DNA of 64,000 bases from Escherichia coli (GTDB taxonomy: Bacteria > Pseudomonadota > Gammaproteobacteria > Enterobacterales > Enterobacteriaceae): NCBI RefSeq assembly GCF_003991155.1, contig NZ_CP031294.1, one strand, 5' to 3'. Shown piece after piece: positions 17,257 through 47,610 of the stretch. Position numbers and translations under genes: made by a program. Each line of letters starts with the position of its first letter. Position 1 is the stretch's first letter. The notes under the pieces were generated by a model. That model saw only the letters and a list, made by a program, of their open reading frames with translations, had not been told where the DNA came from and did not search any database.

Positions 17257-17316
17257 GAAGCCTGCTTCCGTATATATTTAATAAGTTACTTATTATTTAT
17301 ATATACAGATGCAGGT
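17257..17316. promoter_or_regulatory. hairpin-flanked AT-rich intergenic element (copy 1) upstream of terminase operon
   Basis: Arms cctgcttccgtatatat / atatatacagatgcagg flank palindrome aataagttacttatt; near-identical copy at 47551-47610. Confidence 0.5.
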
Positions 17317-17339
17317 CTTTAAATAAGCTCCCAGACCGA

Positions 17340-17606
17340 TTACATCACCAGTAACTTCGCTTTGGCTCGACCTAAAGTGGTTAACCCAAGAGTCCGGCGG
17401 TGATAGCGATTGTCACTGCGTTGGCGCGTATGCCCTTTCTCCACCAGCCCCTTTTTTATCAGAGCGCGAATTGAGAACTGGATACTTTGCTTGGTTGTCT
17501 TGTACGGCAAAACTTCAAGCAATTCGTCCAGGTCAAGTAGATGACCTCGCTCATAACCGAGATTGAGCGTTTTGATGATGTCCTTTTGTTTGTCGGTTAA
17601 CGTCAT
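17340..17606 (-). CDS. small DNA-binding protein (winged-helix-like), hypothetical
   Basis: 88 aa, basic, helix-turn-helix-like segment; last gene of ParB/ATPase operon. Confidence 0.35.
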   Translation of the reverse strand: MTLTDKQKDIIKTLNLGYERGHLLDLDELLEVLPYKTTKQSIQFSIRALIKKGLVEKGHTRQRSDNRYHRRTLGLTTLGRAKAKLLVM

Positions 17607-17615
17607 GGCAAATCC

Positions 17616-18506
17616 TTATGCCGGTAAAGCAATTTCTAACGGTTTATCCAAAGGTTGTTTGTCGAATGCCAGCAGTGGCAGCGTGTCAGGCAGTCGACGG
17701 CCAAAGTCAGGGTTTCGGTACACACCATACAACGGAGACGTAAAGCTCAGGTTGTGAATGTCCTTGAGCAGCTTCACAATGCTGGCCTCGTCCACCAGAC
17801 TGTCGGCAATGTCCTGAATCGTCGTGCCACGATTCCGCCCAGCTTTTGCCAGGGAACTGTTCTTATGGTAGTCCGCCACCAAATCGCGCAGCGCACGGCG
17901 ACGACGAGACTCGCTCATAGCGAACAACTCTTTGACGATCGCCTCGTTATCACCCGGGTCGGAGCGGAAATGGCGCTGGAACACACGCAGTGCACTTTCA
18001 TAGCTCTTCGGTCGCTCAGGGCGGATGAACTTAAACCCTGCTTTCATGGCGAAGGGATTGTATTTGCTCATCGAGGACTGGATCTCAATGATTGGCCGGT
18101 CATGCATCCTGCTAACCAGGTTAATCATTCTATAAGAGACGCCTACGCCACGATACTGAGTATCCACAACTGAGCGACTGATCACCGCAAAGTTGTTATT
18201 CACGTACCGACCCCAGTACTGGTTAGCCACGGTGGTATTAGTGGTTGGTTTCAACTTAGGAAACATGCGGTGGCGAGGTGCCAACAGTAGTTTCGGGTAA
18301 GCCATAACCACGACGCCCACCAGACGGTCATCAAGTTCGCAGCGATAGTAAGTTGGCGCGAAAGGTTTGCCGTCTGTTTTGTAGTGAAGCGACTTAAGAG
18401 CGTGCCAGTCCTCTACAGTTCCCTTTGTAACAGTCATTCGCTCCAGAAAGTCCAGATGACGCGGAAACTCTTCAGGGCGGTAGCGTTTAATGATGATGTC
18501 CGTCAT
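17616..18506 (-). CDS. hypothetical protein with possible GNAT-like acyltransferase motif
   Basis: 296 aa; segment VVDTQYRGVGVSYRMINLV resembles GNAT motif A (Q/R-x-x-G-x-G/A); weak. Confidence 0.3.
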   Translation of the reverse strand: MTDIIIKRYRPEEFPRHLDFLERMTVTKGTVEDWHALKSLHYKTDGKPFAPTYYRCELDDRLVGVVVMAYPKLLLAPRHRMFPKLKPTTNTTVANQYWGRYVNNNFAVISRSVVDTQYRGVGVSYRMINLVSRMHDRPIIEIQSSMSKYNPFAMKAGFKFIRPERPKSYESALRVFQRHFRSDPGDNEAIVKELFAMSESRRRRALRDLVADYHKNSSLAKAGRNRGTTIQDIADSLVDEASIVKLLKDIHNLSFTSPLYGVYRNPDFGRRLPDTLPLLAFDKQPLDKPLEIALPA

Positions 18507-19168
18507 GAATGGACCTCATCATGACTACCATTGTGATATTCCACCTTCACGCGTTCTTTGTAGTGCTTGGTGATCTGCATATCAGGGCGCAGCGCGTTCT
18601 TCAGGTCTTCGTGAGTCGTCGCCACCATTACCGTCGCACCAACCTTTCGAGCGGCACGCTGGAGGTTAGACGCCACAACCTGAGCGGTTACACGGTCGAG
18701 AACAGCGCCGAACTCGTCAGCAGCCCATACTTTAGCGCCTGACTCAATCAGTTTGGCAATCTTGAGACGATATTTCTGGCCGTCTGACATTTCAGAAGGC
18801 TTGCGAACAAACAGATATGCATCGTTCAGACCAGCCATAGATAACAACCCAAGCGCATCACTGGTCGTTTTGCCCAACTGATCGATGACGTTAACCTCAT
18901 TATCGAAGGTAAAATCATCGATGGAGGCTACAGACAGCCCTTCATCCTTCATCTGTCGTTGCAACTCGCGCAGCACAACGGATTTGCCGGAACCGGATTG
19001 GCCGGTGATGTACACCACATCGCCCTGCTTCACTTCCAGCTCCAGATTGTCGTAAAGCGTCCACTCTTTTTCGTCCAGGCCAAGCCCGAACGACTCAGCG
19101 ATTTCCAACGTGCGCGTGGTTTTATTTACGCGTGTCTGAAACGATACGTTGATGATGTATTTGCTCAT
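18503..19168 (-). CDS. ABC-type ATPase (stand-alone nucleotide-binding domain)
   Basis: Walker A GQSGSGKS, signature-like SDGQKYRL, Walker B VWAADEF, H-loop ATTHE. Confidence 0.6.
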   Translation of the reverse strand: MSKYIINVSFQTRVNKTTRTLEIAESFGLGLDEKEWTLYDNLELEVKQGDVVYITGQSGSGKSVVLRELQRQMKDEGLSVASIDDFTFDNEVNVIDQLGKTTSDALGLLSMAGLNDAYLFVRKPSEMSDGQKYRLKIAKLIESGAKVWAADEFGAVLDRVTAQVVASNLQRAARKVGATVMVATTHEDLKNALRPDMQITKHYKERVKVEYHNGSHDEVHS

Positions 19169-19866
19169 GCAGCCATCTCCCCGGAAGAGATCTTCTCCGC
19201 ATATGCCACAAATGCGTCTACCCCGCTTTCTCCCGTCATTTCTTCCATATGGGCAAGCAAATCACCAACAACAATGGCAGAGCCAGCAGGGAGCGTTTTA
19301 AAGCCCAATACGTCGACAACACGTACTTCTTCCGCTGCAACTTCACGACTGATCTCGGTGTGTTCATCCTTCTGTCGTTTAGTTTCTTCGCCAAGATCGA
19401 TAACTAGCGAGTCGGTGTCCATTTCTTCTGTCATACTGCCAACGAGAACATTCAACTCACGCTCTTCAAAGCCGAAAACCTCGATATCGTCCAGAACAAG
19501 CGACTCAAGCTCTTTCTGTAGCTTAATTGCATCGTAATCAATGCTGGCAAGTCGGTTATCTTCAAGGCGCTTCGCACGAACCTCGTCATCACTGAGATCA
19601 TCGCGAACAATAACCGGTACGCGCTCAAGTCCAGCAAAAATTGCAGCCTCACGGCGGCCGTGGCCAGTAATAATTACGTCGTTCTTATCGACCGTAATTG
19701 GCTGGTCAAATCCGCGCTTTTTAATGGCTGCGGCTAGATCTCGGATCTGCTGTTCATCATGCTTTTTGGCATTCATCTCATAGGGAATAAGATCTGCCGG
19801 GTCGCGATATACGATTTCAAACTTTTTGGTCATTACATACGCTCCTTGTAGTAGTCGACCAGCCAC
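19165..19866 (-). CDS. ParB-like nuclease domain protein
   Basis: N-terminal ParB/Srx-type motif ITGHGRREAA; acidic C-terminus. Confidence 0.55.
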   Translation of the reverse strand: MAGRLLQGAYVMTKKFEIVYRDPADLIPYEMNAKKHDEQQIRDLAAAIKKRGFDQPITVDKNDVIITGHGRREAAIFAGLERVPVIVRDDLSDDEVRAKRLEDNRLASIDYDAIKLQKELESLVLDDIEVFGFEERELNVLVGSMTEEMDTDSLVIDLGEETKRQKDEHTEISREVAAEEVRVVDVLGFKTLPAGSAIVVGDLLAHMEEMTGESGVDAFVAYAEKISSGEMAA

Positions 19867-20531
19867 ACCAGAGCCTCACCAGCGTTCTCCATTTCATTAC
19901 CGGTGTTAATAGCCTGCTCTTTGATGATGTTTTTTATGGTTTCTGCAACACGATCTGACGCATCGAAAGTTACTTTGAAGCGCATGGTCTGATGTTCCGC
20001 ACCCACACGTTCGGTTTTCTCTCGTTTGTCGGTATCGACAGGCTCATCACTACCACGAGACAACGCCTCCAGTGCTTCAAGGTCGATTGCCGCCTCTTTT
20101 GCTAAAACCATCGAGATTTCGTCGTCATACGGAGCGATTTCAGACAGTTGATAGTCAAGTTCTGACTGAATTTCTTCAATGAAGCGTTGCAATGCGATTT
20201 GGTCGTCTTCACCGTATCGCTCGTTGTCCACCAGTGACATCTGTTTAGCTACGACATCGCTAATTTTGCCCACAGAAAGCACCGGAACCGTTGAAATTCC
20301 TTGCTCAATAGCAGCACGCCAGCGATGTTCGCCGCCGAGGATTTCAAAAAATCCATCTTCAAGTTCACGAGCCAAAATTGGCTTAAAAAAGCCCAATTTT
20401 TCGATAGAACCTTTCAGTTTTTCAAAATTCTGCGCACCAACCGAATTGGTGTTCCAGGTATTCGGGCGAAGGTTGGCAACATCAACCTGCAAAATCGTGA
20501 TTTTTACATCCATTTTATTGCTACAATCCAC
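19833..20531 (-). CDS. ParB-like nuclease domain protein
   Basis: N-terminal ParB-type motif LGGEHRWRAA. Confidence 0.55.
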   Translation of the reverse strand: MDCSNKMDVKITILQVDVANLRPNTWNTNSVGAQNFEKLKGSIEKLGFFKPILARELEDGFFEILGGEHRWRAAIEQGISTVPVLSVGKISDVVAKQMSLVDNERYGEDDQIALQRFIEEIQSELDYQLSEIAPYDDEISMVLAKEAAIDLEALEALSRGSDEPVDTDKREKTERVGAEHQTMRFKVTFDASDRVAETIKNIIKEQAINTGNEMENAGEALVWLVDYYKERM

Positions 20532-20595
20532 TAAGTAATCACTTACTTATTATAATAGCCAAATAACATACAAAAGGCACTAAGGAAAGAGGTTT

Positions 20596-24703: not shown

Positions 24704-24751
24704 TTAATGGAATCAAGCGCCCACTATGGGCGCTTTAAAGGAGCTTTGAAA

Positions 24752-24975: not shown

Positions 24976-25206
24976 ATGTTTGTTCTTATCGCTGGCGTTA
25001 ACGTCCATAACGAATATTATGTTAATCGCATCGCTGGGATCGCTGGTTACGCTGGGCGCGCAGTCGAGTTTATCGATGAAACAACGCGTAAAATTGATTT
25101 ATTGAGCGACCAGGAGCGAAAAAAAGCAGACGTGAACGACGCTGATATATTTTTAATGTTAAAAGCGTTTGTAGAAATGGGATTTAAAATCAGTTTACAC
25201 AAATAA
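24976..25206 (+). CDS. small hypothetical protein
   Basis: 76 aa, AAGGAG RBS. Confidence 0.45.
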   Translation: MFVLIAGVNVHNEYYVNRIAGIAGYAGRAVEFIDETTRKIDLLSDQERKKADVNDADIFLMLKAFVEMGFKISLHK

Positions 25207-25212
25207 AATCGA

Positions 25213-25240
25213 GCGCCCACTATGGGCGCTTTTTTCGTTT
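25213..25240 (+). terminator. rho-independent terminator
   Basis: gcgcccactatgggcgc hairpin followed by tttttt. Confidence 0.75.
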
Positions 25241-26306: not shown

Positions 26307-26510
26307 GATTAATTCCTTATCGTAAATAACAAATTGTTTTCTTGTTGGTGTTAATTATCGTTGTACGAATAAGGCGTCAAAGTGGAAAGTTGCGGTAGCC
26401 GGACGGGAACAGGTGGGTTTGTCGGTTGCCTGGAGGTAAGAGGTTGGTGTTTTTAGCCTGCGGGAAACAGGATGGTCATTTAAGGCCACCAGCATTGGTG
26501 GCCTTAATCT

Positions 26511-26791
26511 TTAGTGGAGCAGACCGATGTCGATGGTATCCCCTGAATCATCCACACGGATCATCAGCATGGCAAAGGCGTTTAGTGGATAGCTTGCGTG
26601 CCATTCAGGGAAGCGGTCATCTCGCATGAAGTCGGCAATGTCGTAAACGCATCCCTCAAAGTGGAAGAATCGCGTGCTTACCTGCTCGTCATAATCCACA
26701 TGATCCATTTCTTGCTGTTCTGTTTCCGGCAAGTCCAGCCATGATTCAAGAAATACATTTTGTGCTTTAGGGGTAATGGTGAAATCAGTCA
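26511..26791 (-). CDS. small highly acidic protein
   Basis: ~93 aa with ~19 Asp/Glu vs ~5 Lys/Arg; start at ATG 26789-26791 (ORF-track upstream extension runs through promoter motif). Confidence 0.5.
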
Positions 26792-27127
26792 TGAGCATAT
26801 CCTCACTGCGTAAACATGTTGTTTTCTTGTTGGTGTAATTATCGCAGTGTAGATAAGGCATAAAAGAAGTTAATACAGGCTGAATACACAAGAAAGGTTC
26901 TGGAAGTTGATAGCCAGGTTTCAAACTAACCTTCGGTTATTAAAAGTCATTTAAGACCACCAATGCTGGTGGCCTTAATAATTATCGCCCGATTACGCTA
27001 AGGATCTTTTCCTCAACTGATTTGTTGTTGCGACTAAACTGCCTTGCGTATCTGATGACAGAAGAGGCGTTTTGCTTTCTGACCATCTCGGCTCTTTCCT
27101 TCAGGCGTTTCTTGAAATCGCCCATAT

Positions 27128-27502
27128 TTACCACCAGGCGCAGAAGGTCAGTCTGTTATTGTGAAAGTCGTGGTTCTTAATCAGATCTTCCACAAGCTCT
27201 TTCAACTCCCCCACATCATGCCAGTAACCTTCATCGTACTCCTGACTGCCGAAGAAAAAACCTTCCCGGGTAGGCAAGTACTCTTCGCAATTACTTTCGT
27301 TTATGTGCATCAAATGAGCCTTCAGAAAACAAATGTCATTCATCGTTAATTCTAAAAGCTCACAATTTTCGACTTCACCTACGTTGCGCTCCATCCACCC
27401 AACGAGCGCATTGAACTTACGGAAGTAAGCAACCTGCTTTCTGGATGCCTCGTTATTCAGATCGTTTTTAGGCTGTGTCTCGATATAGATATCAAGTCCC
27501 AT
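27128..27502 (-). CDS. hypothetical early protein
   Basis: Start placed at ATG 27500-27502 (MGLDIYIETQ) with AAGGAA RBS. Confidence 0.45.
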   Translation of the reverse strand: MGLDIYIETQPKNDLNNEASRKQVAYFRKFNALVGWMERNVGEVENCELLELTMNDICFLKAHLMHINESNCEEYLPTREGFFFGSQEYDEGYWHDVGELKELVEDLIKNHDFHNNRLTFCAWW

Positions 27503-27619
27503 GATGGTTTCCTTATTAAGTTGCTTCAGTGAAATCATTTTCACAAATCAGATAAGGCAGAAAACAAATTGTTATCGGGCATAAGAAAATGGCGCGGTTT
27601 ACGCGCCATTCAAAGAGGA

Positions 27620-28015
27620 TTAAGCGAATACGCTTTCAGGGATTAAGGTGTCAGCAGGAATGCCGGAGGTAATGCGCAGGCCGTACTGACCAATCCAGGT
27701 AGTGTTGGTATTCAGGCTGGAGGCGAATACGGTGTTAACCATATTCATCATGGTTTCAAACACCTCTTCATCAACCTGGCGGAAGTAGTTCTCGATTTTC
27801 AGCAGCAGCGGGTCAGTTGCATCGAAAATAGACTGGTATTGAGTCGCGTACTCGCCGCCGGAGGCATCACCTTTACGCACGATCGTACTGGCCTGGACTT
27901 CGGCACCAGTTTCGGTGTTGTACGTAACAACGGTGATTTTTGCCACATTCTTACCTTCGGCGGTTTCAGAGGCATAGTAAACATCAACTGTCAGTTTTTC
28001 GCGTTTAACGGTCAT
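27620..28015 (-). CDS. hypothetical early protein
   Basis: Start placed at internal ATG (MTVKREKL) with GGAGAG RBS; terminator hairpin downstream at ~27572-27598. Confidence 0.45.
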   Translation of the reverse strand: MTVKREKLTVDVYYASETAEGKNVAKITVVTYNTETGAEVQASTIVRKGDASGGEYATQYQSIFDATDPLLLKIENYFRQVDEEVFETMMNMVNTVFASSLNTNTTWIGQYGLRITSGIPADTLIPESVFA

Positions 28016-28141
28016 TTCACTCTCCGTAGTGTTTTGGTTATTTTTATATTCTATGATCGTAAGTATGTACTTACAATACAAAAAAGCCCCGTAAGGATGG
28101 CGGGGCTGTCGTACTGTCGACTAATTACCACTTGCACATTA

Positions 28142-28453
28142 TCAGGCTATTGCCATCACTGATGCTCTCTGAATCTCTTGCTGGGCCACGCGGTTAACTT
28201 CCATCAAAGCCAGTTCGAGCTGATGTTCCGGCCACATTCTTTGAAATGCCACCCAGCCTTTTCCACGCTGGCGACGAACATTCATTACATAACGAGTAAA
28301 GGTGTATTTATCGAAAGACACCGCTGTTTCACGGAACAGACGAATAGAGGTTCCATTGGCAACGATGTCCAGCAAAGTTAATTGAGCAACCAGCGCAGGC
28401 TTCTCTTTTCTCTTCTGGTCTTTGTCCAGACCAAGAACCAATGATTTTTTCAT
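28142..28453 (-). CDS. hypothetical early protein
   Basis: Start at ATG 28451-28453 (MKKSLVLGL), GGAG RBS, motif-A leader at 28465-28490. Confidence 0.45.
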   Translation of the reverse strand: MKKSLVLGLDKDQKRKEKPALVAQLTLLDIVANGTSIRLFRETAVSFDKYTFTRYVMNVRRQRGKGWVAFQRMWPEHQLELALMEVNRVAQQEIQRASVMAIA

Positions 28454-28606
28454 CACAACTCCGTAAACAACTTGTTTTCTCAATGGCGTAAATAATACCA
28501 GTAAGAAAACGGCTACAAAGCATATTGATCAGGTGCATGAGCGATATGCAGGTTCTTCCCTGCGGCTATAGAGAAATTAAGCCAGCATTGCTGGCTTTGG
28601 TTAGGT

Positions 28607-28936
28607 TTACTCGAATACTTCAAGAAACTCCTGAACGTCCCAATGCTGGACAAGGTGAAGATAGACCTTAGAAATAACATCATTCTCGCTATCGCATGTG
28701 AAGTAGTACTTCTGGCTGCGGTTGTATGTGTCCACACAAAATTCGCTCATATCCATAAAGTCAGCATCTTCACCCATGTCGCAAATCATCAAAGCAGGTG
28801 CGTCATCACGAGTCATCAGCTCAAGCACCCACCGCGAATTGATCAGAGTGGAAGACCAACCTTCTAACTCATAAAACTGATCAAACTCTTTTTGAGTTAA
28901 TTTCTTGATTTGGTTGATGTCGATATTTGCAAACAT
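28607..28936 (-). CDS. hypothetical early protein
   Basis: Start at ATG 28934-28936 (MFANIDINQ), AGGA RBS, motif-A leader at 28948-28983. Confidence 0.45.
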   Translation of the reverse strand: MFANIDINQIKKLTQKEFDQFYELEGWSSTLINSRWVLELMTRDDAPALMICDMGEDADFMDMSEFCVDTYNRSQKYYFTCDSENDVISKVYLHLVQHWDVQEFLEVFE

Positions 28937-30490
28937 AAAGCAATCCTTAAACAACATGTTTTCTTGATGGTGTTATTATCGCAATAACGCACAGGTGAAA
29001 AAGGATTTTATTCCGGTGAATGTGGTTTTGGCAGTGAGTTTTCAGGTTCAGTACCGAGTACACTTTTTACATTATTCTGATTTAGTGGCCGAAGGTGGCT
29101 GGTGGGCAGAATAATCCTCTCCCCGAAAACCTACTGAAATCGATTGTGACCCGTTGGCTGTCTGGCACAATTACGCTGTAACTGGGCATTCAGAGGGAAT
29201 CCAGCGGTAAGTAAGTTCGCCTGCACGTGAGCGCCTCTCTTCTTCCCGCACATTACAGGTGGGTAGCCGCAACTCTCCCTCTCGCTATACCGGTACGCCG
29301 CCGTTCCTGAACCGGCATCGAGCCTTCTCCCGAAATCCACACAGGCAACTCGACCGTTTCCCTGAAAACCTCCAGCCGTTCCCCGAAGGCAACCCAGCCG
29401 TTTCTGTAGCGGGATGCAACCTTTTCCCTGTATGGACCGAAGGCTGACCGTAGGGGTGTTACGGGGGATAAAATCAGGAGTTGAATAAATACGAAAAAGG
29501 AGGCGACACCCCTCCTTCTCTCCCCACTTATACATACCTGGCTTCTTCGCTATACATGTTGTGTTTTATTCGTGTTTTATCTGTCTCAACCTCTCTATGG
29601 ACGTTAATACTCACTCCTTCCAGAACGTTCTATACGGCGACTAATTCTGTTGGTGAATTGGGTGTGTTGTTCTCTCTGTCGGTGTATGTGGTTTCGTTCG
29701 TTTTGCGGTGGTTCTTCTATGGGGTGTTCTCGTCGTTTTGGTGATTGTTCTTCTCCGTGTATGGAGTAATGGCAGGTGGGCGATTCCTTTCGTTATTGTG
29801 TTTGAGTTGTTTGTCTGGAGTGCGTGAAGGGCTTTTGTAGTTATTCGTGTGTTGGGTAATGGCGTTTCCCGTGATTGTTCTGTTTCGTGTCTTTTGGGAT
29901 TGAGAGAAACCTTGCGGTTACAGGCTTCGTTGGGGTTTCAGTGATTCTGGTGTTTCTTCGCTGTTTGGGTAATGGCGTGTCGTGGGTATCGCGCGTATGG
30001 AAGTTTCGAATTGCCTGTGAAAGTTAGGTTGGTTGTCCGGTAGCCTGAGAAGAAGAGGTGGGTCTTTTCGGTAGCCTGCCATAAAGAGGTTGGTTGTTTT
30101 TGGTAATGGCATATGTGTTATTTAGTTGTTTTGTTATGCCTGAAAATAAGTTGTTTATATGGTTATGTAACGCAACGGGAACGATTTTGAGCGTGTGTTT
30201 TTGTTGGTAGTGTGTTGGGTCGTCTGTGGTGAAAATTGGACGCTGTGGCGCTGTCTGCTGCGTAGAATTACGGGTATAAGCAGTGATGTGTGAAAACGTC
30301 AATTTTTTAGACCAAATCGGGTGAAAGCGTTGATGTTTCGTTGATCTGTTATTCAGTTGTTTTCTTATTGGTATAAACAACTGTAACCTATTGATATTTA
30401 AGGATGTGATTCCAGGCATGGAAGGGGAGTAGTGGCGATCAACGGATTCTTATAGAAAAGAATCAAATTGTGACCGCCATTATCAATGTT

Positions 30491-31225
30491 TTACTTAGTT
30501 TTGTTTAGCAGAGAGAGAATTTCATCACTAATTTCACTCGCCTGTTTGATAGCCAATGCAGTTACCTCTTCTATGGTTGGTGACTGTTGATGCTCATATT
30601 TGGTTTCGGTTATGACAATGTGTTCTTCACCAGAATTTGCGCATAGTGCCGCATTGACGATAAGGTTTGAGTAAGAATTTAGCAGAGCACTGTTGATGAA
30701 CGCTTTCACGGTATTACTGTCTGCACCAAATACATCTTTTCTGACCGCTTCAGCCTCACAGCGAACCCCTGCAGCAACATCGTGAAGAACATGTATGGCC
30801 TTGGAGCTTGTTTGTTCACAGTACTCAATCATTATTGTCGAATTGTTCTGTTCAACAAACGATCTGATGCCTGACGATTTACCCATAGCATCGAAGGCAG
30901 CGTGACCCGCACTAGTAGAGATATCTTCATAGAGTTCTTCATCGCTATCTTTTTCTTCAGGTGTCGAGGTGTCTTCATCGTCGTAATAGATATTGCCTTT
31001 AATCAGTGTCTTGGACACTTGATATAAACAATAAGAAACGAGATTTAAGCATTGGATTTTAGCTGTATTGTCCTTTGTCGCCTCGCTATTCAGTTCTTTC
31101 GCTTCTTCAGTAAGGCTGTTGATAAGACTTTGTATTTTTTCCAACGCGTTAGGTGCACACTCCGCGTTGTCCATAAAGAATTTATAACCAGTCCCAGGGA
31201 TTTCTAAACTTTTCAACTTTTTCAT
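30491..31225 (-). CDS. hypothetical protein (AT-rich gene)
   Basis: 244-aa ORF with ATG start; AT-rich composition distinct from neighbours. Confidence 0.45.
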   Translation of the reverse strand: MKKLKSLEIPGTGYKFFMDNAECAPNALEKIQSLINSLTEEAKELNSEATKDNTAKIQCLNLVSYCLYQVSKTLIKGNIYYDDEDTSTPEEKDSDEELYEDISTSAGHAAFDAMGKSSGIRSFVEQNNSTIMIEYCEQTSSKAIHVLHDVAAGVRCEAEAVRKDVFGADSNTVKAFINSALLNSYSNLIVNAALCANSGEEHIVITETKYEHQQSPTIEEVTALAIKQASEISDEILSLLNKTK

Positions 31226-31270
31226 TTCTTTGATAATCCTAAAAACAAACTACCAATGCTTTAATATCTG

Positions 31271-31570
31271 TTACCAGTTCCAGCACTCAAGCCCTTCAAC
31301 GACCGGCGCACCACAATCAAAATGTACAGAGTCAAAGCCTACATCAAGTACTTTCTGAATGTTAGCAATCGCGCCTTCGGATATACCATATCGACGCAAG
31401 TCCTCTTTCCAGACATCATCCTGTAACCCAGCGTGGACAATACAACCGCCGTCAATTTGTGAAACCCAATCCAGCTCATTGCTTGCGATCATGAATCGGC
31501 GAGCATCTTCCTCTGATGTATGAGATGAGCTGATCAATGCCACCTGGTAGGCTTGGGTAATGTTCAACAT
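31271..31570 (-). CDS. hypothetical early protein
   Basis: 99 aa, GGAG RBS, motif-A leader at 31583-31617. Confidence 0.45.
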   Translation of the reverse strand: MLNITQAYQVALISSSHTSEEDARRFMIASNELDWVSQIDGGCIVHAGLQDDVWKEDLRRYGISEGAIANIQKVLDVGFDSVHFDCGAPVVEGLECWNW

Positions 31571-31685
31571 TTCAACAACTCCGAAACAATTTGTTTTCTT
31601 ATGTGGCTTATTATCTCAATCAACAAAAGGTAGAAAACAAATTGTTTTAGGGTTTGTTAAAGTCAGAAGGGGTTGTGTCTATATG

Positions 31686-31731: not shown

Positions 31732-33765
31732 TTACTTAACCTGGTGGCCTGGTTTAGCACCAGCATCCGGGCTTAACAGGAAGATATCTTTCCCGCCGGG
31801 GCCAGCAGCCATCACCATGCCTTCGGAGATACCGAAGCGCATTTTACGCGGAGCCAGGTTAGCCACCATAATGGTGTGACGACCAATCAGTGCCTGTGGG
31901 TCTGGATAAGCAGAACGGATGCCTGAGAAGACATTACGCTTTTCACCACCGAGATCCAGTGTCAGACGCAGCAGTTTGTCAGAACCTTCGACAAACTCCG
32001 CGTTTTCAATCAGCGCCACACGCAGGTCAACTTTGGCGAAGTCGTCAAAGGTGATGGTTTCCTGAATCGGGTCGTCAGCCAGTGGGCCAGTTACCGGTGC
32101 AGCTGTGGCTTTCACTTCTTCTTTGGATGCTTCCACCAGTGCTTCCACCTGTTTCATATCGATACGGTTATACAATGCCTTGAACGGATTCACTTTATGG
32201 CCCAGCAGCGGTTGCTGGATACCATCCCAGGTCAGTTCTGTATTCAGGAATGCTTCTGCACGTTCAGTCAGTTTCGGCAGTACCGGTTTCAAGTACGTCA
32301 TCAGCACGCGGAACAGGTTAATGCCCATAGAGCAAATCGCCTGCAGATCGGCATCGCGTCCTTCCTGCTTCGCCACCACCCACGGAGCCTGTTCATCGAC
32401 ATATCGGTTAGCCAGGTCAGCCAATGCCATGATTTCACGGATAGCTTTACCAAATTCGCGGCTTTCCCATGCTTCGCCAATCACTTCAGCGGCATCAGTA
32501 AAGGTTTTGTACAGTTGCGGGTCAGCCAGTTCGCTTGCCAGCACGCCGTCAAAACGCTTGTTGATAAAGCCTGCATTACGGGAGGCCAGGTTAACCACTT
32601 TGTTCACGATATCGGCATTCACGCGCTGAACGAAATCCTCCAGGTTGAGATCGATATCATCAATGCGCGAAGAGAGTTTCGCAGTGTAGTAGTAACGCAG
32701 GCTGTCGGCGTCAAAATGATTCAGCCAGGTGCTGGCTTTAATAAAGGTGCCGCGAGACTTGGACATCTTCGCGCCGTTCACCGTCACATAGCCGTGAACA
32801 AACAGGTTGGTCGGCTTGCGGAAGTTGCTGCCTTCCAGCATGGCAGGCCAGAACAGGCTGTGGAAGTAAACAATATCTTTACCGATGAAGTGGTACAGCT
32901 CGGCTGTGGAGTCTTTCTTCCAGTATTCATCGAAGCTGGTGGTATCGCCGCGCTTGTCGCACAGATTCTTGAAGGAACCCATGTAGCCAATCGGCGCGTC
33001 CAGCCAGACGTAGAAATATTTGCCCGGCGCGTTCGGAATTTCAAAACCGAAGTAAGGCGCATCGCGGGAGATATCCCACTGTTGCAGGCCGGATTCAAAC
33101 CACTCCTGCATTTTGTTCGCCACCTGCTCCTGCAACGCACCGCTGCGGGTCCATGCCTGCAACATTTCGCTGAAAGAGGGCAGATCAAAGAAGAAGTGTT
33201 CGGAATCACGCATTACCGGGGTAGCGCCAGAAACCACCGATTTCGGCTCGATCAATTCAGTCGGGCTATATGTTGCGCCGCAGACTTCACAGTTATCGCC
33301 GTATTGATCTGGCGCTTTACATTTCGGGCAGGTGCCTTTCACAAAACGATCCGGCAGGAACATGCCTTTTTCCGGGTCGTACAACTGAGAGATAGTGCGG
33401 TTTTTAATAAAACCGTTCTCTTTCAGGCGAGTATAGATAAGCTCAGACAGCTGGCGGTTCTCTTCGCTGTGCGTCGAGTGATAGTTGTCATAGCTGATGT
33501 TAAAGCCTGCGAAATCAGTCTGGTGTTCCTGACTCATTTCGCCAATCATCTGCTCCGGTGTGATACCAAGCTGCTGTGCTTTCAGCATGATCGGCGTACC
33601 GTGGGCATCGTCGGCACAGATGAAATTAACCTCGTGGCCGCGCATTCGCTGGTAACGAACCCAGACATCAGCCTGGATGTGCTCCAGCATATGGCCGAGG
33701 TGGATTGAGCCGTTAGCGTACGGCAGCGCGCACGTCACCAGAATTTTCTTCGCGACTTGGGTCAT
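31732..33765 (-). CDS. metG: methionyl-tRNA synthetase
   Basis: 677-aa product [29 protein letters not shown]... recalled as essentially E. coli MetG (HIGH motif, KMSKS, C-terminal tRNA-binding domain); start at ATG 33763-33765, ORF-track upstream extension rejected. Confidence 0.97.
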
Positions 33766-37714: not shown

Positions 37715-38970
<1,256 letters not shown>

Positions 38971-43798: not shown

Positions 43799-43813
43799 TG
43801 CGGCCATATCAGA

Positions 43814-44383
43814 TCAATTAGAGCTTTGAAAGACTTTGTGTGGTTGTGTTGCGAGGTTATGTCGATGGCTTAACTCACGCATCATGTCTTCAAGGCGACT
43901 CTTTGTGTCGTCGAGTTGGTCGGCCATTGCTCCCAAAAGCTGACGAACGGCCATAGGATCATCGCTGTTTAGTGATGGCATTTTATAACCCGCCTGAGAA
44001 GACATAAGATTGAACGCAGACATCAACATCGTTAGAGAGGATTTAAGCCCAGCAATTTCACGATCTTTGCTGGCAATAATCGTCTCACTCTTGTTAGTGT
44101 CATCAGTTCGTTGAGTCTCGCTCACCATATCCAAAGTCGCCTGCAACTTATCAGCGCGCTCTTTTTCAGCAAGATAATGAACACCGAAATGATGTGCTAA
44201 AGCTACAACCTGAGTTGGCTCTTCAAAGGTGGACTCAAAATTAAGTGCTGTAACCACTCTCTCAAATATGGAAACGTCTTCTATTCCTCGAAGAATGGCT
44301 AACATTTTGACCAGTTCATTAGCATCCATTTCTTCGAATAAGGCGTTTTGTTCATCAGCTATCGCTTTGCATTTCTTGCACAT
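43814..44383 (-). CDS. hypothetical early protein
   Basis: 189 aa; conserved RBS context AGGAAAAACACATG; motif-A leader at 44401-44435. Confidence 0.5.
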   Translation of the reverse strand: MCKKCKAIADEQNALFEEMDANELVKMLAILRGIEDVSIFERVVTALNFESTFEEPTQVVALAHHFGVHYLAEKERADKLQATLDMVSETQRTDDTNKSETIIASKDREIAGLKSSLTMLMSAFNLMSSQAGYKMPSLNSDDPMAVRQLLGAMADQLDDTKSRLEDMMRELSHRHNLATQPHKVFQSSN

Positions 44384-44680
44384 GTGTTTTTCCTAATTCT
44401 TAAACAAGTTGTTTTCTTATTGGCTTTATTGTGATGTGGCATAAAAGGGGAGCAAGCTAAACGTAAAGGTGCAAACTCTCTATTTCGGTCAACGAAACAC
44501 AAGGGCCATTTGGCCCTTGTTATTAACACGTTGCTTTACGGACTAGCGGATAAGCGAAGTAGATCGCCAGACCAATGAGGACGCCATCAGAAATGACAGA
44601 CATCATCTTTCCCGTAAAATCCACCAACACCGCCATCACCAGAAGAGCAATGACGATCACAAGCCGGAATCTCTCAAGCA

Positions 44681-45106
44681 TTAGAGATAAGCATCCAGTG
44701 ACAACTGAAGCGCCTGGGCGATCTTTTTCAGTGCCTGCTCTTCTTGTTCACCAATGCCATCCTGATCGGCAATATCAAGGCACAGACACAGAACATCGAC
44801 CGCCTCTGGAGTACCCGCAATATCAGACAGCTCACGAATAGCCTGTGCATTAGCAGAACGAGGGGACGCTTCGTAACGAGCACGGATATTGGCGCTCATT
44901 TGGGCAATTTCACCAGCAAACGGAGAAAACGCAGGCAGAGCTGCAATTGTCTTCTCAAGAATGGCAATTTCTTTTGCGTCACATGTGCCGTCGGCATAGG
45001 AGATCATGTACGCGCCCCACACGGTGGCCTCAACCGCATCACGGTTCTCCATTTTTTTGACTTCGATAACTGCTTTACGAGTTTTCTTTTTGAAGAAACC
45101 TAACAT
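44681..45106 (-). CDS. hypothetical early protein (possible TerB-like fold)
   Basis: 141 aa; conserved RBS context; motif-A leader at 45128-45160; TerB assignment is weak pattern recognition only. Confidence 0.4.
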   Translation of the reverse strand: MLGFFKKKTRKAVIEVKKMENRDAVEATVWGAYMISYADGTCDAKEIAILEKTIAALPAFSPFAGEIAQMSANIRARYEASPRSANAQAIRELSDIAGTPEAVDVLCLCLDIADQDGIGEQEEQALKKIAQALQLSLDAYL

Positions 45107-45199
45107 GTGTTTTCCTTTTGTTATTTGTCAAAACAAGTTGTTTTATAGTTTCATAAATTGCTTACGCAAAGATGGTCAATGCATATGCACTAACAGCCG

Positions 45200-45388
45200 T
45201 CAGAAATAACCAAGTACCGAACCGACTGGAAAAACAAAAATCCCAACTACACGAGCCAAGGTCATGCCAGCCTGAAACTGGAGATCGCCAGAGCAAACAA
45301 GTTTTATAATGTTCGATACCCAACCGGCGGCCATGAGGGCAAGAATTGCCAGCCAAATTTTTCCAAAGTGATTTGAAAACCAGTTCAT
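45200..45388 (-). CDS. small membrane protein (two predicted TM helices)
   Basis: 62 aa, hydrophobic stretches IWLAILALMAAGWV and VVGIFVFPVGSVLGYF. Confidence 0.4.
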   Translation of the reverse strand: MNWFSNHFGKIWLAILALMAAGWVSNIIKLVCSGDLQFQAGMTLARVVGIFVFPVGSVLGYF

Positions 45389-45636
45389 ACAACCGCCTTA
45401 GTCACAGCATGATCCTGAGTAACCGGATGAACTTGAGGTATCGCATCCACCGTCATCCCATCCAGAGTGACAGGACGCTCTACTGGAGTGGTGGTAATTG
45501 TCGTCGACGGAGGTGTGGTGATGGATGAACCCGGCATCAAAAGGCTCTGGCCGGCTGGAACGGCTACCGTCGCCAGTGAAACTATAATGAGAACGTAGGC
45601 CATTGGTTTCAGCCTCTTTCTTTGAAAATTTTCCAT
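45385..45636 (-). CDS. small secreted protein candidate
   Basis: Signal-like MAYVLIIVSLATVAVPAG; 4-bp overlap with downstream gene; fully embedded in another frame of ORF 45398..45892. Confidence 0.3.
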   Translation of the reverse strand: MENFQRKRLKPMAYVLIIVSLATVAVPAGQSLLMPGSSITTPPSTTITTTPVERPVTLDGMTVDAIPQVHPVTQDHAVTKAVV

Positions 45637-45892
45637 TCGAACTGTCCTTGTTGTTTTTCTCCTTCACTAAAGGCCGTGTACTTTTCGCTTCGCGTGAAGA
45701 ACCAGAGGCAACAATCGCCCCCACGTTCGCAACAACTGACGCTTGATTATCTAAACGTTCATTCAGCAACCGAACGGTAGTCTCTAGTTCATCAAGACGT
45801 GACATAACACGACCGCTAAACAATTCGGCCAAAATTTGACGTAAAGAACGAGGACGTTTAGTTGCAGAAGTGAAATAGGTTTGACGTGCCAT
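45398..45892 (-). CDS. hypothetical protein (N-terminal part plausible, C-terminal low complexity)
   Basis: 164-aa ORF; C-terminal third Ser/Gly/His-rich; overlaps 45385..45636. Confidence 0.3.
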   Translation of the reverse strand: MARQTYFTSATKRPRSLRQILAELFSGRVMSRLDELETTVRLLNERLDNQASVVANVGAIVASGSSREAKSTRPLVKEKNNKDSSNGKFSKKEAETNGLRSHYSFTGDGSRSSRPEPFDAGFIHHHTSVDDNYHHSSRASCHSGWDDGGCDTSSSSGYSGSCCD

Positions 45893-46037
45893 GTGGACTC
45901 CATCCAGTGTCAGAAAGAGTTGCGGCTGGCGATTGCCAGCCGCCTTTCTCGTTCCATCCTGGAACTGTGTCTTACCGACACATTGTCATCCTGACGCTGA
46001 TAAGATACATGATTTAAAATGATAGGTAAACACTTAC

Positions 46038-46682
46038 TTACCACTTGTTATAAACAAAACCAATATCTTTCTTGTGAGGCATATCTGCTGCTGAAAAAGC
46101 TGCGATCTTCGCGAGTCGATCACATATTTCATTTTCACGATGCCCGGCGTGACCTTTAACCCACTTCCAGCGAACATTATGTCGACTTGCGGCCTCATCC
46201 AGACGTTTCCACAGATCAACATTCTTTACCGGTTTTTTATCAGAAGTCATCCATCCATTACGTTTCCACCATTTCATCCACTGTGTCATGCCGTTTTTCA
46301 GATACTGGCTATCAGAGTACAAAATAACGTTGCATGGATATTTCAAACGCTCCAGCCCGATAAGTGCGCCCATCATCTCCATGCGGTTATTGGTGGTGCT
46401 ATGAAAACCATCTGAGAACTCGCGTTCCTCACCACGATACTGGAGAACGATACCGTAACCGCCCGGGCCACCCGGATTTTTAAGGCAAGAGCCATCACTA
46501 AAGATTTTCACGGTTTTGAGCTGGGGATTGAACTCTACGACAGGCGTTGTGGGATTGGTGCGGGGAGAATTTTTGTTTTTGGCTTTTTTGCGAGTTTTTG
46601 CTTGCGATCGGGCTGGTGTCTTCGTCGTCATATAAACTCCTGAATCAAGCGCCGCGCCGATTTTTTCCTCGCGCGTGCGCAC
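46038..46682 (-). CDS. rnhA: ribonuclease H (RNase HI family)
   Basis: C-terminal region [12 protein letters not shown]...[16 protein letters not shown]...[26 protein letters not shown]...[16 protein letters not shown] matches RNase HI; basic N-terminal extension. Confidence 0.85.
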
Positions 46683-47214
46683 ACGCGTGCGTGTTAATAA
46701 TTATTAAAATAAACAAATTACTTCCCAGAACAGGTTTTTTATAAACCTGAACTGAACGAACGAAGTGAGTGAAGTTCACCTCGAACGAAGTGAGAGGTTG
46801 TCTTTTCAGGTAATACTCTCCCAGGGAGGTGAGTATAAAATTCCTCACCAACCTGGTCGTTTCATAACCTGAAAAGCTATGGTCTAAGTCTACTGCCAGC
46901 TTAGACTTGGGAAGTTATGGATGACAGCACCCCAGAACCGAGATCTTCCCACACTTTATGAAGGGGAGTACTGGATTCAACCTCTCGAAACACCCCAGAC
47001 TCGACAATCATAAAGTGACCCTTGTCTCTGCTCACTTTGGTTCCCCCTTCCCCGACACCTAAACGGCACCGGTTCTACGCTGGTAGTGAGCTTTTTTAAA
47101 CCTGACGCCAGTGACGCTTACCCCCACCCATCAGGTCGAGTCTCCAGTCTACGACTGGAAACTATCAGATCTTAGCACTTACAATTCACTTTATGAATAG
47201 TTTGTACTTATCTA

Positions 47215-47469
47215 TCATTTCGATTGATTATTTTTTCGACCATGTAGTTGAACATTCAAGGCAAACACCTCGTTGATCAACTCACCTAAAAGCTGTTCAA
47301 CAAGTTCGCGATGCTCCCCAAGATGCAAGCACTTAATTGCCCATTCGTACAAGTTGAAAGCCTGCTCACGATCTTTCATCATTTCACGAGCCTGGGCCAG
47401 AAAATCGCTCTCTACGAGCGCAACGACATTAGTCGGATATGACATGTTGGTTTCCTTAAAGTGGTTCAT
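47215..47469 (-). CDS. small hypothetical protein
   Basis: 84-aa ORF downstream of hairpin element copy 2. Confidence 0.4.
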   Translation of the reverse strand: MNHFKETNMSYPTNVVALVESDFLAQAREMMKDREQAFNLYEWAIKCLHLGEHRELVEQLLGELINEVFALNVQLHGRKNNQSK

Positions 47470-47550
47470 AAAATCGATTTTAAAGCGTCTGGGAAGGGGT
47501 TCTAGTGGATTCTGTAGTGGTGTTCAGGTCTGGGAGTCTCTGATATAAAA

Positions 47551-47610
47551 CAGCCTGCTTCCGTATATTAATAATTAATATGTAGTTATTTATATATACA
47601 GAAGCAGGCT
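47551..47610. promoter_or_regulatory. hairpin-flanked AT-rich intergenic element (copy 2)
   Basis: agcctgcttccgtatat ... atatatacagaagcaggct; near-identical to 17257-17316. Confidence 0.5.

What the first reader, a model, noticed from the sequence alone, without database searches (positions are those of the whole stretch)
17257..47610. Two copies of a ~60-bp element: 17-bp inverted arms around an AT-rich palindromic core
Copies at 17257-17316 (upstream of TerS) and 47551-47610 (between Dam-like MTase and a small gene). They are the only two of this extended form and could be late promoters, terminators or recombination sites.
Basis: seen in the sequence. Interest (0 to 1): 0.4.

Follow-up and report, generated by a model that had tools for sequence, protein, structure and literature searches.

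The report
Three-copy boundary palindrome of SSU5 phage-plasmids
The two ~57-bp palindromes are real, belong to a set of three kept at the same places in SSU5-type phage-plasmids from E. coli to Methylobacterium, and most likely act as hairpin stops that wall off blocks of genes, though some features point to an extra role on the DNA itself.

Summary
Both copies have ~16-nt arms (CCTGCNTCYGTATATA) around a 24-29 bp AT-rich core, and matches far exceed chance.

The window is an SSU5-like phage-plasmid, 98-99% identical to phage Cyrano/pLF82. "Only two copies" holds for the window only. Complete relatives have a third copy outside it.
- Copy A lies just upstream of terS.
- Copy B lies just after the Dam-like methylase.
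- Copy C lies after the lysis and cargo genes, before the helicase operon.

All 124 pattern hits in IMG/VR fall into these three positions. K. oxytoca plasmids keep three copies with a similar half-site. Methylobacterium pAMS5a keeps three with different arms and an AT-rich core in a 65% GC plasmid.

Published RNA-seq of the Cyrano lysogen shows a 7- to more than 200-fold drop across copy C and a 2-6-fold drop across copy A. Copies B and C carry a T-tract after the stem.

Best reading (about 0.45): hairpin terminators or insulators between gene blocks. A plain terminator does not explain the arms shared within a genome, the lack of compensatory changes, the AT-rich cores or the flipped cores. 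Replication origin, regulator-binding site and packaging site remain live rivals. I found no description of the element in the searchable literature.

The parts
17257..17318 (-). Copy A of the palindrome. Arms at 17260-17276 and 17300-17316. AT-rich core with inner palindrome TAATAAGT-N-ACTTATTA centred near 17288. Lies between the wHTH gene and terS.
   Evidence: Syntenic class A in 45 IMG/VR loci. The SSU5 and Cyrano linear records start and end inside its core.
47551..47610 (-). Copy B of the palindrome. Arms at 47553-47569 and 47593-47609. AT-rich core lacks the inner TAAGT-N-ACTTA motif. Lies 22 bp after the stop codon of the Dam-like methylase gene.
   Evidence: Syntenic class B in 34 IMG/VR loci.
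47543..47552 (-). T-tract (GTTTTATAT on the coding strand) directly after the stem of copy B.
   Evidence: Class B has on average 5.6 T in the 10 nt after the stem on the coding strand.
17328..17337 (-). Outer motif GGTCTGGGAG upstream of copy A on the coding strand. A degenerate inverted partner (GGTCTGG on the + strand) lies at 17241-17247.
   Evidence: only two perfect copies in the window, both beside a palindrome. Alignment.
47527..47536 (+). Outer motif GGTCTGGGAG, which reads CTCCCAGACC downstream of copy B on the coding strand. Partners are CCAGAAC at 47622-47628 and AGTCTGGGAG at 47688-47697.
17186..17225 (-). Two copies of the AGAAAACAANTTGTT operator-type palindrome (D1 family) between copy A and terS, preceded by a weak -10-like CTAATT. 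Probable terS promoter/operator, separate from the palindrome.
   Evidence: (families D1, D4).
17153..17184 (-). Canonical terminator-like hairpin (TAGAGCGC-ATGGAC-GCGCTCTG plus TGTGTTTTAG) in the terS leader, 10 nt before the ribosome-binding site.
17340..17606 (-). 88-aa winged-helix protein gene directly upstream of copy A. This position is conserved across the whole superfamily. Candidate DNA-binding partner, not shown.
   Evidence: phrog_900; MarR/PadR-like fold.
16512..17144 (-). Small terminase-like DNA-binding protein gene (terS), the first gene after copy A.
   Evidence: phrog_867.
47632..48225 (-). Dam-family N6-adenine methyltransferase gene, the last gene before copy B.
   Evidence: PF05869, E = 2.5e-38.
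47215..47469 (-). 84-aa ORF (phrog_5343), the first gene after copy B.

Best explanation
The two elements are copies A and B of a three-copy 'boundary palindrome' that punctuates the circular genome of SSU5-type phage-plasmids. Nearly all genes in these genomes run in one direction.

When an upstream gene block is transcribed through the element, the RNA folds into a long hairpin. The hairpin has a 10-bp GC-containing base (CCUGCNUCYG / CRGANGCAGG) and an AU-rich upper stem, with a free energy of about -24 to -28 kcal/mol. In copies B and C a U-tract follows, and RNA polymerase stops.

The three stops separate:
- B: the nucleotide-metabolism block from the following small-gene block.
- A: the ParB-like/wHTH operon from the virion (terS onward) operon.
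- C: the lysis and constitutively expressed cargo genes from the helicase-primase replication operon.

Such insulation matters for a plasmid prophage that must keep lytic genes silent next to expressed maintenance genes.

What is shown: the anatomy, the three conserved positions, the T-tracts, and transcript drops at C (strong) and A (moderate) in a near-identical prophage.

What is inferred: that the hairpin itself causes the stop, that B behaves like C, and that this is the selected function. The sequence conservation of the arms and the AT-rich core suggest the element is also recognised as DNA by a phage protein. I rate a second role of that kind as likely but undefined.
For: 1. Both window copies and the third copy are intergenic between co-directional genes. 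Each lies 22-25 bp after the stop codon of the upstream gene.
2. Sense-strand RNA hairpins have free energies of -26.3 (A) and -27.8 (B) kcal/mol. The class means are -24 to -28.
3. The T count in the 10 nt after the stem on the coding strand averages 5.6 (B), 5.8 (C) and 3.0 (A) over 23, 22 and 25 distinct sequences (alignments).
4. Public RNA-seq of the LF82 lysogen carrying Cyrano (PMC9928086, S1 Table), values as log2(FPKM+5):
   - CYRAN_28-30 read 5.2-10.8. CYRAN_31, the first gene after copy C, reads 2.3-4.2, which is at or near the floor. That is a 7- to more than 200-fold drop across a 193-bp gap that holds copy C.
   - CYRAN_123 to terS (CYRAN_1) drops 2-6-fold in the samples where CYRAN_123 is expressed. 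This fits the weaker T-tract at A.
5. All 124 IMG/VR pattern hits fall in three syntenic classes at gene-block boundaries. The same three positions are kept in K. oxytoca. Methylobacterium has copies before terS, after the lysis genes, and 14 kb upstream of terS.
6. At the variable Y/R pair, the commonest state (39 of 70 distinct sequences) is a G-U wobble on the sense RNA but a mismatch on the other strand.
7. No clear counterpart was found upstream of terS in Pseudomonas phage Nican01, a relative with no plasmid genes in the parts I read. This fits a need tied to prophage silencing, but only 34 kb of that genome was read.
Against: 1. Independent terminators do not normally share sequence. 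Here the three arms are nearly identical within a genome, conserved across E. coli, Salmonella and Klebsiella, and replaced together by different arms in Methylobacterium and Rhizobium phage B1VFA.
2. There are no compensatory changes. The two variable arm positions change independently and leave A-A, G-A, U-C or C-A mismatches.
3. The interior is 24-42 nt and stays AT-rich even in a 65% GC plasmid. There the palindromes account for two of only three AT-rich islands. A terminator has no need for that.
4. No T-tract follows the stem in Methylobacterium or B1VFA, and it is weak at copy A.
5. The simple terminator scan does not call either copy, because the loop exceeds 8 nt.
6. The RNA-seq is gene-level, from lysogens only. 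It cannot separate the palindrome from anything else in the intergenic gap, and it is uninformative for copy B because the upstream gene is silent.
Confidence: 0.45

Rival explanations
1. Lytic replication origins or DNA-unwinding sites. The conserved arms are half-sites for a phage initiator or helicase loader, and the AT-rich core is the region that melts or extrudes as a cruciform. Three such sites fire during lytic growth of the ~108-kb genome. This phage carries T4-like replication and recombination genes (UvsW, UvsY, gp32-like SSB, RecA, SbcCD-like nuclease, DnaB, primase, Pol III alpha).
For: - The AT-rich core is kept in a 65% GC genome, where the palindromes form two of the three AT-rich islands in 118 kb.
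- The arms are sequence-conserved, lineage-specific and show no compensatory change.
- Core length varies and the core is flipped in some relatives, as expected for a structure-forming DNA palindrome.
- In enterics, copy C sits directly upstream of the hypothetical gene plus DnaB-primase operon.
- The phage encodes the replication and recombination genes listed above.
- The architecture resembles herpesvirus oriS/oriL and SV40 origins (my own knowledge).
Against: - No initiator has been identified.
- Phage origins served by DnaB-type helicases are usually direct iterons plus an AT tract, not palindromes (my own knowledge).
- In Methylobacterium the C-like copy is 8 kb from the helicase gene.
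- An origin gives no reason for a position fixed immediately upstream of terS across distant lineages.
- The plasmid origin (RepA plus 21-bp iterons) lies elsewhere.
Confidence: 0.17
2. Binding or loading sites for a phage regulator that silences or organises the three gene blocks in the plasmid-prophage state. Candidates are the MarR/PadR-like 88-aa winged-helix protein encoded next to copy A, or the Spo0J-like ParB encoded 2.5 kb upstream. The model is KorB operators on RK2 or the dispersed centromere repeats of N15.
For: - The arms are conserved in sequence, shared by all copies in a genome, and different between lineages.
- The wHTH gene keeps its place directly upstream of copy A in all lineages. 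Its model is a minimal MarR/PadR-type winged helix.
- The first ParB-like protein aligns with Spo0J over the N-terminal and HTH domains.
- The sites sit at the heads of the virion and replication operons.
- No clear palindrome was found upstream of terS in the Nickievirus relative Nican01.
Against: - The half-sites are about 40 bp apart, and the spacing varies by 2-5 bp within enterics and by more in other lineages. That is awkward for a dimer bridging both arms.
- No canonical parS is present.
- The wHTH and ParB-like genes are also present in relatives that lack the palindrome, such as Nican01 and the Acinetobacter plasmid.
- Two other, more abundant palindromic motifs (AAACAANTTGTTT and GTAAGTNNTTAC) are better operator candidates for these proteins.
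Confidence: 0.17
3. Terminase recognition or cleavage sites (cos, pac or boundaries of direct terminal repeats). Copy A would be the packaging start next to terS, and the other copies would be alternative or auxiliary sites.
For: - Copy A is immediately upstream of terS in E. coli, Salmonella, Klebsiella, K. oxytoca, Methylobacterium and Rhizobium phage B1VFA.
- The linear GenBank record of virion-derived SSU5 begins and ends inside the core of copy A, about 10 nt from the dyad centre.
- Relatives with TerL 56-59% identical to the Methylobacterium pAMS5a TerL, which is itself 58% identical to SSU5 TerL, package from fixed ends. B1VFA has 3.6-kb direct terminal repeats (PMC12509600). Nican01 is listed as 'DTR (long)' (PMC11256456).
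Against: - There are three near-equivalent copies per genome, 25-47 kb apart. This fits neither a single cos/pac site nor 3.6-3.9 kb repeats.
- The SSU5 junction has the same core length as circular relatives, so no bases were gained or lost. The break could equally be an assembly break at a palindrome.
- Cyrano's start was probably copied from SSU5.
- Nican01 has the homologous terminase but no clear palindrome before terS.
Confidence: 0.13
4. Site-specific recombination or resolution sites (lox/dif/res-like), or hairpin-telomere resolution sites.
For: Inverted arms flank an AT-rich spacer. The core is inverted in some relatives. The left flank of copy C is a hot spot of gene replacement that starts right at the element. 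An integrase and a RuvC-like resolvase are encoded in the genome.
Against: - The spacer is 24-29 bp and varies in length, whereas tyrosine-recombinase cores have 6-8 bp spacers of fixed length (my own knowledge).
- Three copies in direct order on one circle would delete 30-47 kb segments.
- The plasmids are circular and no protelomerase is annotated.
- The core flips are better explained by hairpin-loop inversion.
Confidence: 0.03

Closest known systems
Rho-independent (intrinsic) terminators at gene-block boundaries of phage genomes, such as T7 T-phi or lambda tR' (my own knowledge)
   Same: Intergenic position after the last gene of a co-directional block. GC-rich stem base followed by a T-tract in copies B and C. 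Steep fall in RNA level across copy C in vivo.
   Different: The stem-plus-interior is about 55 nt with a 24-29 nt AT-rich interior. The sequence is shared among three loci and conserved across genera without compensatory change. The T-tract is weak or absent at copy A and in the alpha-proteobacterial versions.
REP/BIME extragenic palindromes of enterobacteria (my own knowledge)
   Same: Repeated imperfect palindromes with a conserved sequence, placed after operon ends between co-directional genes. They act both on RNA (3'-end stabiliser or attenuator) and on DNA (protein-binding sites).
   Different: REP elements occur in hundreds of copies at non-conserved places and are linked to RAYT transposases. 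Here there are exactly three copies at fixed syntenic positions, and I saw no such enzyme annotated.
Lambda nut and HK022 put sites (my own knowledge)
   Same: Two or three copies per genome of a hairpin-forming element near the starts of operons, with lineage-specific sequence.
   Different: nut and put sites are short, act only as RNA and are strand-specific. Here the core can be flipped, the arms are 16-20 bp, and no antiterminator has been identified.
Dispersed centromere inverted repeats of the linear plasmid-prophage N15, and KorB operators of RK2 (my own knowledge)
   Same: A few palindromic sites scattered over a phage-plasmid or plasmid genome next to promoters, bound by a ParB-family protein. 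This phage encodes a Spo0J-like ParB.
   Different: Those sites are 13-16 bp contiguous palindromes. Here the arms are separated by a variable 24-42 bp AT-rich core, and no binding has been shown.
Herpes simplex virus oriS/oriL and SV40-type palindromic origins (my own knowledge)
   Same: Three copies per genome of a palindrome with an AT-rich centre flanked by inverted protein-recognition sequences.
   Different: This is an analogy only. No initiator helicase of that type is known here, and there are no replication data.

Membership tests
Intrinsic (Rho-independent) terminator | Stable GC-rich stem | tested here: met
   The base of the stem has 10 bp with 6-7 G-C pairs. Sense-RNA free energy is -26.3 (A) and -27.8 (B) kcal/mol. 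DNA-fold z-scores are -5.5 to -6.5.
Intrinsic (Rho-independent) terminator | Short loop (3-8 nt) | tested here: not met
   The interior is 24-29 nt and only partly self-pairing. The consensus scan does not call either copy.
Intrinsic (Rho-independent) terminator | U-tract directly after the stem on the transcribed strand | tested here: inconclusive
   Present at copy B (GTTTTATAT; class mean 5.6 T in 10 nt) and at copy C (5.8). Weak at copy A (3.0) and absent in Methylobacterium and B1VFA.
Intrinsic (Rho-independent) terminator | Transcripts end at the site in vivo | tested here: inconclusive
   Gene-level RNA-seq of the Cyrano lysogen shows a 7- to more than 200-fold drop across copy C and a 2-6-fold drop across copy A. 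It is uninformative for copy B. There is no nucleotide-resolution 3'-end mapping.
cos/pac packaging site | Lies next to the terminase genes | tested here: met
   Copy A is 115 bp upstream of terS. The same position is kept in four divergent lineages. Copies B and C are not near the terminase genes.
cos/pac packaging site | Virion DNA ends map to the site | tested here: inconclusive
   The SSU5 record ends fall in the core of copy A. No end-mapping data were available, and the junction shows neither loss nor duplication of bases.
cos/pac packaging site | One functional site per genome length | tested here: not met
   There are three copies per genome, at 0, 31 and 78 kb in Cyrano and 0, 33.5 and 78.3 kb in SSU5.
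Replication origin | Easily melted AT-rich element flanked by repeated recognition sequences | tested here: met
   The AT-rich core lies between conserved inverted arms and is kept in a 65% GC plasmid.
Replication origin | Initiation of DNA synthesis at the site, and binding by an initiator | not testable with these tools
   No replication-intermediate or marker-frequency data were available, and no initiator has been identified.
Tyrosine- or serine-recombinase core site (lox/dif/res/att) | Short inverted arms around a spacer of fixed length (6-8 bp for tyrosine recombinases) | tested here: not met
   The spacer between the GTATA and TATAC ends is 24-29 bp and polymorphic through TA slippage.
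ParB centromere (parS) | Contiguous ~16-bp palindrome of the TGTTNCACGTGAAACA type | tested here: not met
   There are 3 matches at up to 3 mismatches against 2.5 expected, and none is at the elements.
Sigma-70 promoter | -35 and -10 hexamers with 16-18 bp spacing on the coding strand | tested here: not met
   None is found at copy A. At copy B the only match is a 9/12 match on the non-coding strand, within chance expectation.
Known RNA families (Rfam 15) | Match to a covariance model | tested here: not met
   The only hit around copy A is a chance-level miRNA match (E = 0.88) outside the element. Copy B was not scanned.

The most novel reading that the evidence does not exclude
The palindromes are primarily DNA-level, structure-forming sites (cruciform or lagging-strand hairpins) that a phage protein recognises, and termination is only a by-product. 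The most interesting version has two forms. They could be programmed entry points for lytic DNA metabolism: origins, or hairpin targets of the phage SbcCD-like nuclease whose breaks start recombination-dependent replication of the circular plasmid prophage. Or they could be the fixed sites from which this terminal-repeat-packaging family cuts its ends. Either form would explain the arms that change together between lineages, the obligatory AT-rich centre even at 65% GC, the flipped cores, and the fixed number of three.
Probability: 0.3. Interest if true: 0.75.

Novelty: new variant of a known kind. Interest (0 to 1): 0.42.

Why it matters
SSU5-type phage-plasmids include pHCM2 of S. Typhi, pMT1 of Y. 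pestis, Cyrano of the Crohn's-associated E. coli LF82, and many Klebsiella and E. coli plasmids that carry resistance genes. Almost nothing is known about their cis-acting sites.

A three-copy element kept at the same gene-block borders from alpha- to gamma-proteobacteria marks how these genomes are partitioned into silent lytic blocks and expressed maintenance or cargo blocks. Copy C also marks the edge of the cargo-insertion hot spot.

If the element is only a terminator, it is a useful annotation and engineering landmark. If it is also an origin, a packaging site or a regulator-loading site, it gives a direct handle on the switch from plasmid to phage replication.

Tried and rejected
- Literature. 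Searches for SSU5 with cos, cohesive ends, termini, PhageTerm, palindrome or origin found no description of the element. The SSU5 genome note and the Gilcrease and Casjens paper are not held.
- Record starts as evidence for physical ends.
  - Cyrano's start was probably copied from SSU5.
  - The record of vB_KpnS_p4727 starts at the ATG of the gene after copy B, which is an annotation convention.
  - Nican01 starts at the TerL ATG.
  - The start of B1VFA could not be tied to its reported terminal repeat.
- Protein family searches of TerL gave only generic Terminase_6N/Terminase_3 hits and about 25% identity to T5-like and Jersey-like terminases. That is too distant to infer the packaging mode.
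- Late promoter idea (TATAAATA in the core). There are 8 occurrences in Cyrano against 5.4 expected, and the motif is on the opposite strand in copy C.
- RNAalifold recovers the inner stem, and an outer TCTGG/CCAGA helix only for class B. There is no covariation support.
- The Rfam scan was negative, and so was the canonical parS search.
- The genome-contig scan found the enteric arm pattern in Yersinia pestis, Kluyvera and Buttiauxella contigs and two Bacillota MAG contigs, plus one unrelated GC-rich chance match. I inspected only the Y. pestis hit and the chance match.
- The 88-aa protein next to copy A is a generic MarR/PadR-type winged helix, which does not discriminate between the hypotheses.
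- In the Acinetobacter phage-plasmid and in the 34 kb of Pseudomonas phage Nican01 that I read, I found no three-copy palindrome.

Full report
WHAT THE WINDOW IS

The regions around both copies are 98-99% identical to Escherichia phages CMS-2020a, PhiR41_1 and Cyrano (the plasmid prophage pLF82). They are 77-87% identical to Salmonella phage SSU5 and to Klebsiella phage-plasmids. The window is therefore part of an SSU5-type phage-plasmid.

The window's minus strand is the phage's coding strand for nearly all genes near both copies. In Cyrano coordinates the window covers 1-17279 and 61658-108379. About 44 kb of the genome lies outside it.

CHECK OF THE OBSERVATION

Both elements are present as described.
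- The half-site CCTGCNTCYGTATATA occurs four times with up to 2 mismatches, against 0.07 expected. These four hits are exactly the four arms.
- The two copies are 81% identical over 57 nt.
- Single-strand folding gives z-scores of -5.5 to -6.5 against shuffles.
- GGTCTGGGAG occurs perfectly only twice in 64 kb, once beside each copy. Degenerate inverted partners lie on the far side, so the unit is nearer 100 bp.

The claim of only two copies needs correcting.
- Cyrano has a third copy at 31159-31211, between CYRAN_30 and the CYRAN_31-helicase-primase operon.
- Virion-derived SSU5 has three copies: at the record ends, at 33458-33513 and at 78304-78360.

HOW WIDE AND HOW OLD

An exact-pattern scan of IMG/VR returned 120 or more loci.
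- All 124 instances fall into three syntenic classes. A (45 instances) lies before terS. B (34) lies after the Dam-like methylase. C (45) lies before the helicase operon.
- This scan required the arms to match, so arm conservation within that set is by construction.

The unbiased tests are relatives found through TerS or TerL protein similarity.
- K. oxytoca plasmid NZ_CP138770 (TerS 59% identical) has three syntenic copies with half-site GCCTG-NN-TCYGTATAT.
- Methylobacterium pAMS5a (TerS 26% identical, 65% GC) has three copies. Their arms are different, CCAAGTCCGCNYTCCTGTAA, around AT-rich cores of about 35-42 bp. One lies before terS, one about 28 kb downstream after the lysis genes, and one 14 kb upstream. 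Two of them account for two of only three AT-rich islands in the plasmid.
- Rhizobium phage B1VFA has a full copy before terS and a half copy 14 kb upstream, again with its own arms.
- I found no equivalent set in an Acinetobacter phage-plasmid, nor in the 34 kb of Pseudomonas phage Nican01 that I read.
- With the enteric arms, the element turned up in Yersinia pestis (pMT1), Kluyvera and Buttiauxella contigs and two Bacillota MAG contigs. One further hit was an unrelated GC-rich chance match.

The element is therefore ancient and usually present in three copies. Its arms are the same within a genome and different between distant lineages.

ANATOMY THAT BEARS ON MECHANISM

1. Every copy is intergenic between co-directional genes and lies a few tens of bp after the upstream stop codon.
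2. Two arm positions vary independently and without compensation, among 70 distinct enteric sequences.
   - The N/N pair is complementary in 59 and mismatched in 11.
   - The Y/R pair is T/G in 39, C/G in 14, T/A in 9 and C/A in 8.
   - T/G is a wobble on the sense RNA but a mismatch in DNA and on the antisense RNA. The number of independent events behind these counts is small.
3. Core length varies from 24 to 29 nt, mostly by TA slippage.
4. The core is inverted in Cyrano copy C and in a few other sequences relative to their closest relatives. This is the flip-flop typical of hairpin-forming inverted repeats.
5. On the coding strand a T-tract follows the stem in classes B (mean 5.6 T in 10 nt) and C (5.8) but not A (3.0). 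None follows in the alpha-proteobacterial versions.
6. Copy A is followed by a separate promoter/operator-type motif of the abundant AGAAAACAANTTGTT family. It is also followed by a canonical terminator-like hairpin in the terS leader.

EXPERIMENTAL DATA FROM A PAPER

The LF82 study (PMC9928086) provides per-gene RNA-seq for Cyrano in lysogens, in ten samples. Values are log2(FPKM+5).
- Copy C. The co-directional genes CYRAN_28, 29 and 30 read 5.2-10.8. CYRAN_31, the first gene after copy C, reads 2.3-4.2, at or near the floor of 2.32. That is a 7- to more than 200-fold fall across a 193-bp gap whose only strong hairpin is copy C.
- Copy A. Converted back to FPKM, the level falls 2-6-fold from CYRAN_123 to terS in the samples where CYRAN_123 is expressed.
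- Copy B. The upstream methylase gene is silent, so nothing can be said about termination. The downstream gene is slightly higher.

These are gene-level data from uninduced cells, not end mapping.

WEIGHING THE EXPLANATIONS

The terminator/insulator reading explains the intergenic position at block borders, the T-tracts at B and C, and the measured boundaries. It also fits a need specific to plasmid prophages: expressed maintenance and cargo genes sit directly upstream of lytic operons on the same strand.

It does not explain the near-identity of the arms among the three loci, or their joint replacement in other lineages. It also does not explain the uncompensated mismatches, the insistence on an AT-rich centre at 65% GC, or the missing T-tracts in alpha-proteobacterial members. 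Those features are the signature of a DNA site recognised by a protein or selected for easy melting or extrusion.

I therefore put about 0.45 on termination/insulation as the main function. About 0.5 is spread over DNA-level roles:
- origin, 0.17
- regulator or ParB-type binding site, 0.17
- packaging or termini, 0.13
- recombination, 0.03

The two kinds of role are not mutually exclusive.

For packaging, the evidence in favour is the fixed position of copy A before terS, the SSU5 record ends inside its core, and fixed-end packaging in relatives. B1VFA has 3.6-kb direct terminal repeats and Nican01 is listed as 'DTR (long)'. Against it, three copies 25-47 kb apart fit neither a single site nor the repeat length. 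The SSU5 junction has lost or gained no bases relative to circular relatives.

For a regulator site, the neighbouring 88-aa protein is a MarR/PadR-type winged helix conserved across the superfamily. One ParB-like protein is Spo0J-like with an HTH domain. Both genes also occur in relatives without the palindrome, and no canonical parS is present.

COMPARISON WITH KNOWN SYSTEMS, AND NOVELTY

The element works most like an intrinsic terminator. In its combination of RNA and DNA features it resembles REP/BIME extragenic palindromes. It fails the short-loop criterion of a textbook terminator, and copy A also lacks the U-tract.

It also fails the defining features of cos/pac sites (single copy), recombinase core sites (short fixed spacer), parS sites and sigma-70 promoters. 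No Rfam family matches around copy A.

I found no description of it in the searchable literature. I class it as a new variant of a known kind: a sequence-conserved, three-copy boundary palindrome. Interest is moderate. It would rise substantially if a DNA-level role is shown.

Noticed in passing
window 17186-17225, 26328-31661, 44403-44417, 45132-45146, 55352-55366 (coding = minus strand): About 12 copies of a promoter/operator family. An extended -10 (TGnGATAAT) is followed by the palindrome AGAAAACAANTTGTTT, 15-40 nt before start codons of mostly small genes. One pair sits between copy A and terS. It is probably the operator of a phage repressor.
   Followed up: partly
Cyrano 15533, 22452, 38252, 42607, 57450, 67887, 79655 (window equivalents include 15241-15265, 48231-48257 and 57786-57807): A second palindromic motif, GTAAG-NN-CTTAC (for example GATAGGTAAGTGCTTATCTAT), recurs about 8-10 times. 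The same motif occurs 23 times in an Acinetobacter phage-plasmid (ATTAGTAAGCGCTTACTATAAT) and about 20 times in Rhizobium phage B1VFA, just upstream of ribosome-binding sites. It looks like a regulatory signal conserved across the superfamily. A related TAAGT-N-ACTTA forms the centre of palindrome copies A and C.
   Followed up: partly
window 63460-63912: Four 21-bp repeats (CCACTATAGAGAGC...) lie at the edge of the window next to the RepA gene of relatives. They are very probably the iterons of the plasmid replication origin.
   Followed up: no
window 17153-17184 (minus strand): A canonical terminator-like hairpin plus T-run sits inside the terS leader, downstream of the probable promoter. 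This hints that the virion operon is controlled by antitermination or attenuation.
   Followed up: no
window 26475-26513 / 26946-26984 and 24706-24736 / 25202-25232: Two further pairs of near-identical GC-rich hairpins (TTAAGGCCACCAGCATTGGTGGCCTTAA and GAGCGCCCACTATGGGCGCTTT) are spaced about 470-500 bp apart in the small-gene region. They look like duplicated terminators. This shows that hairpin sequences are reused in this genome.
   Followed up: no
window 17340-20513 (minus strand): A conserved operon lies directly upstream of copy A and terS: a Spo0J-like ParB, a second ParB_N protein, an ABC-type ATPase, a 296-aa protein (phrog_886) and an 88-aa winged-helix protein. The order is kept in E. 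coli, K. oxytoca, Methylobacterium, Rhizobium and Pseudomonas relatives. Function unknown.
   Followed up: partly
Left flank of copy C in relatives (IMG/VR loci L010-L129; Cyrano 28190-31134): The sequence upstream of copy C is unalignable between relatives right up to a (T/G)TCTGG motif about 15-25 nt before the left arm. The downstream side is conserved. Copy C therefore marks the edge of the cargo-gene hot spot (toxin-antitoxin, ParA and others).
   Followed up: partly
B1VFA (L145) 118-131: The 13-nt enteric arm sequence CCTGCATCTGTAT occurs about 120 nt from the start of the Rhizobium phage B1VFA record. I saw no inverted partner in the neighbouring sequence. It could be chance (roughly 0.004 expected) or could relate to that phage's fixed genome end.
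   Followed up: no
window 38258-38302: Three and a half tandem copies of a 12-bp unit (CTGAGCTTACCG).
   Followed up: no
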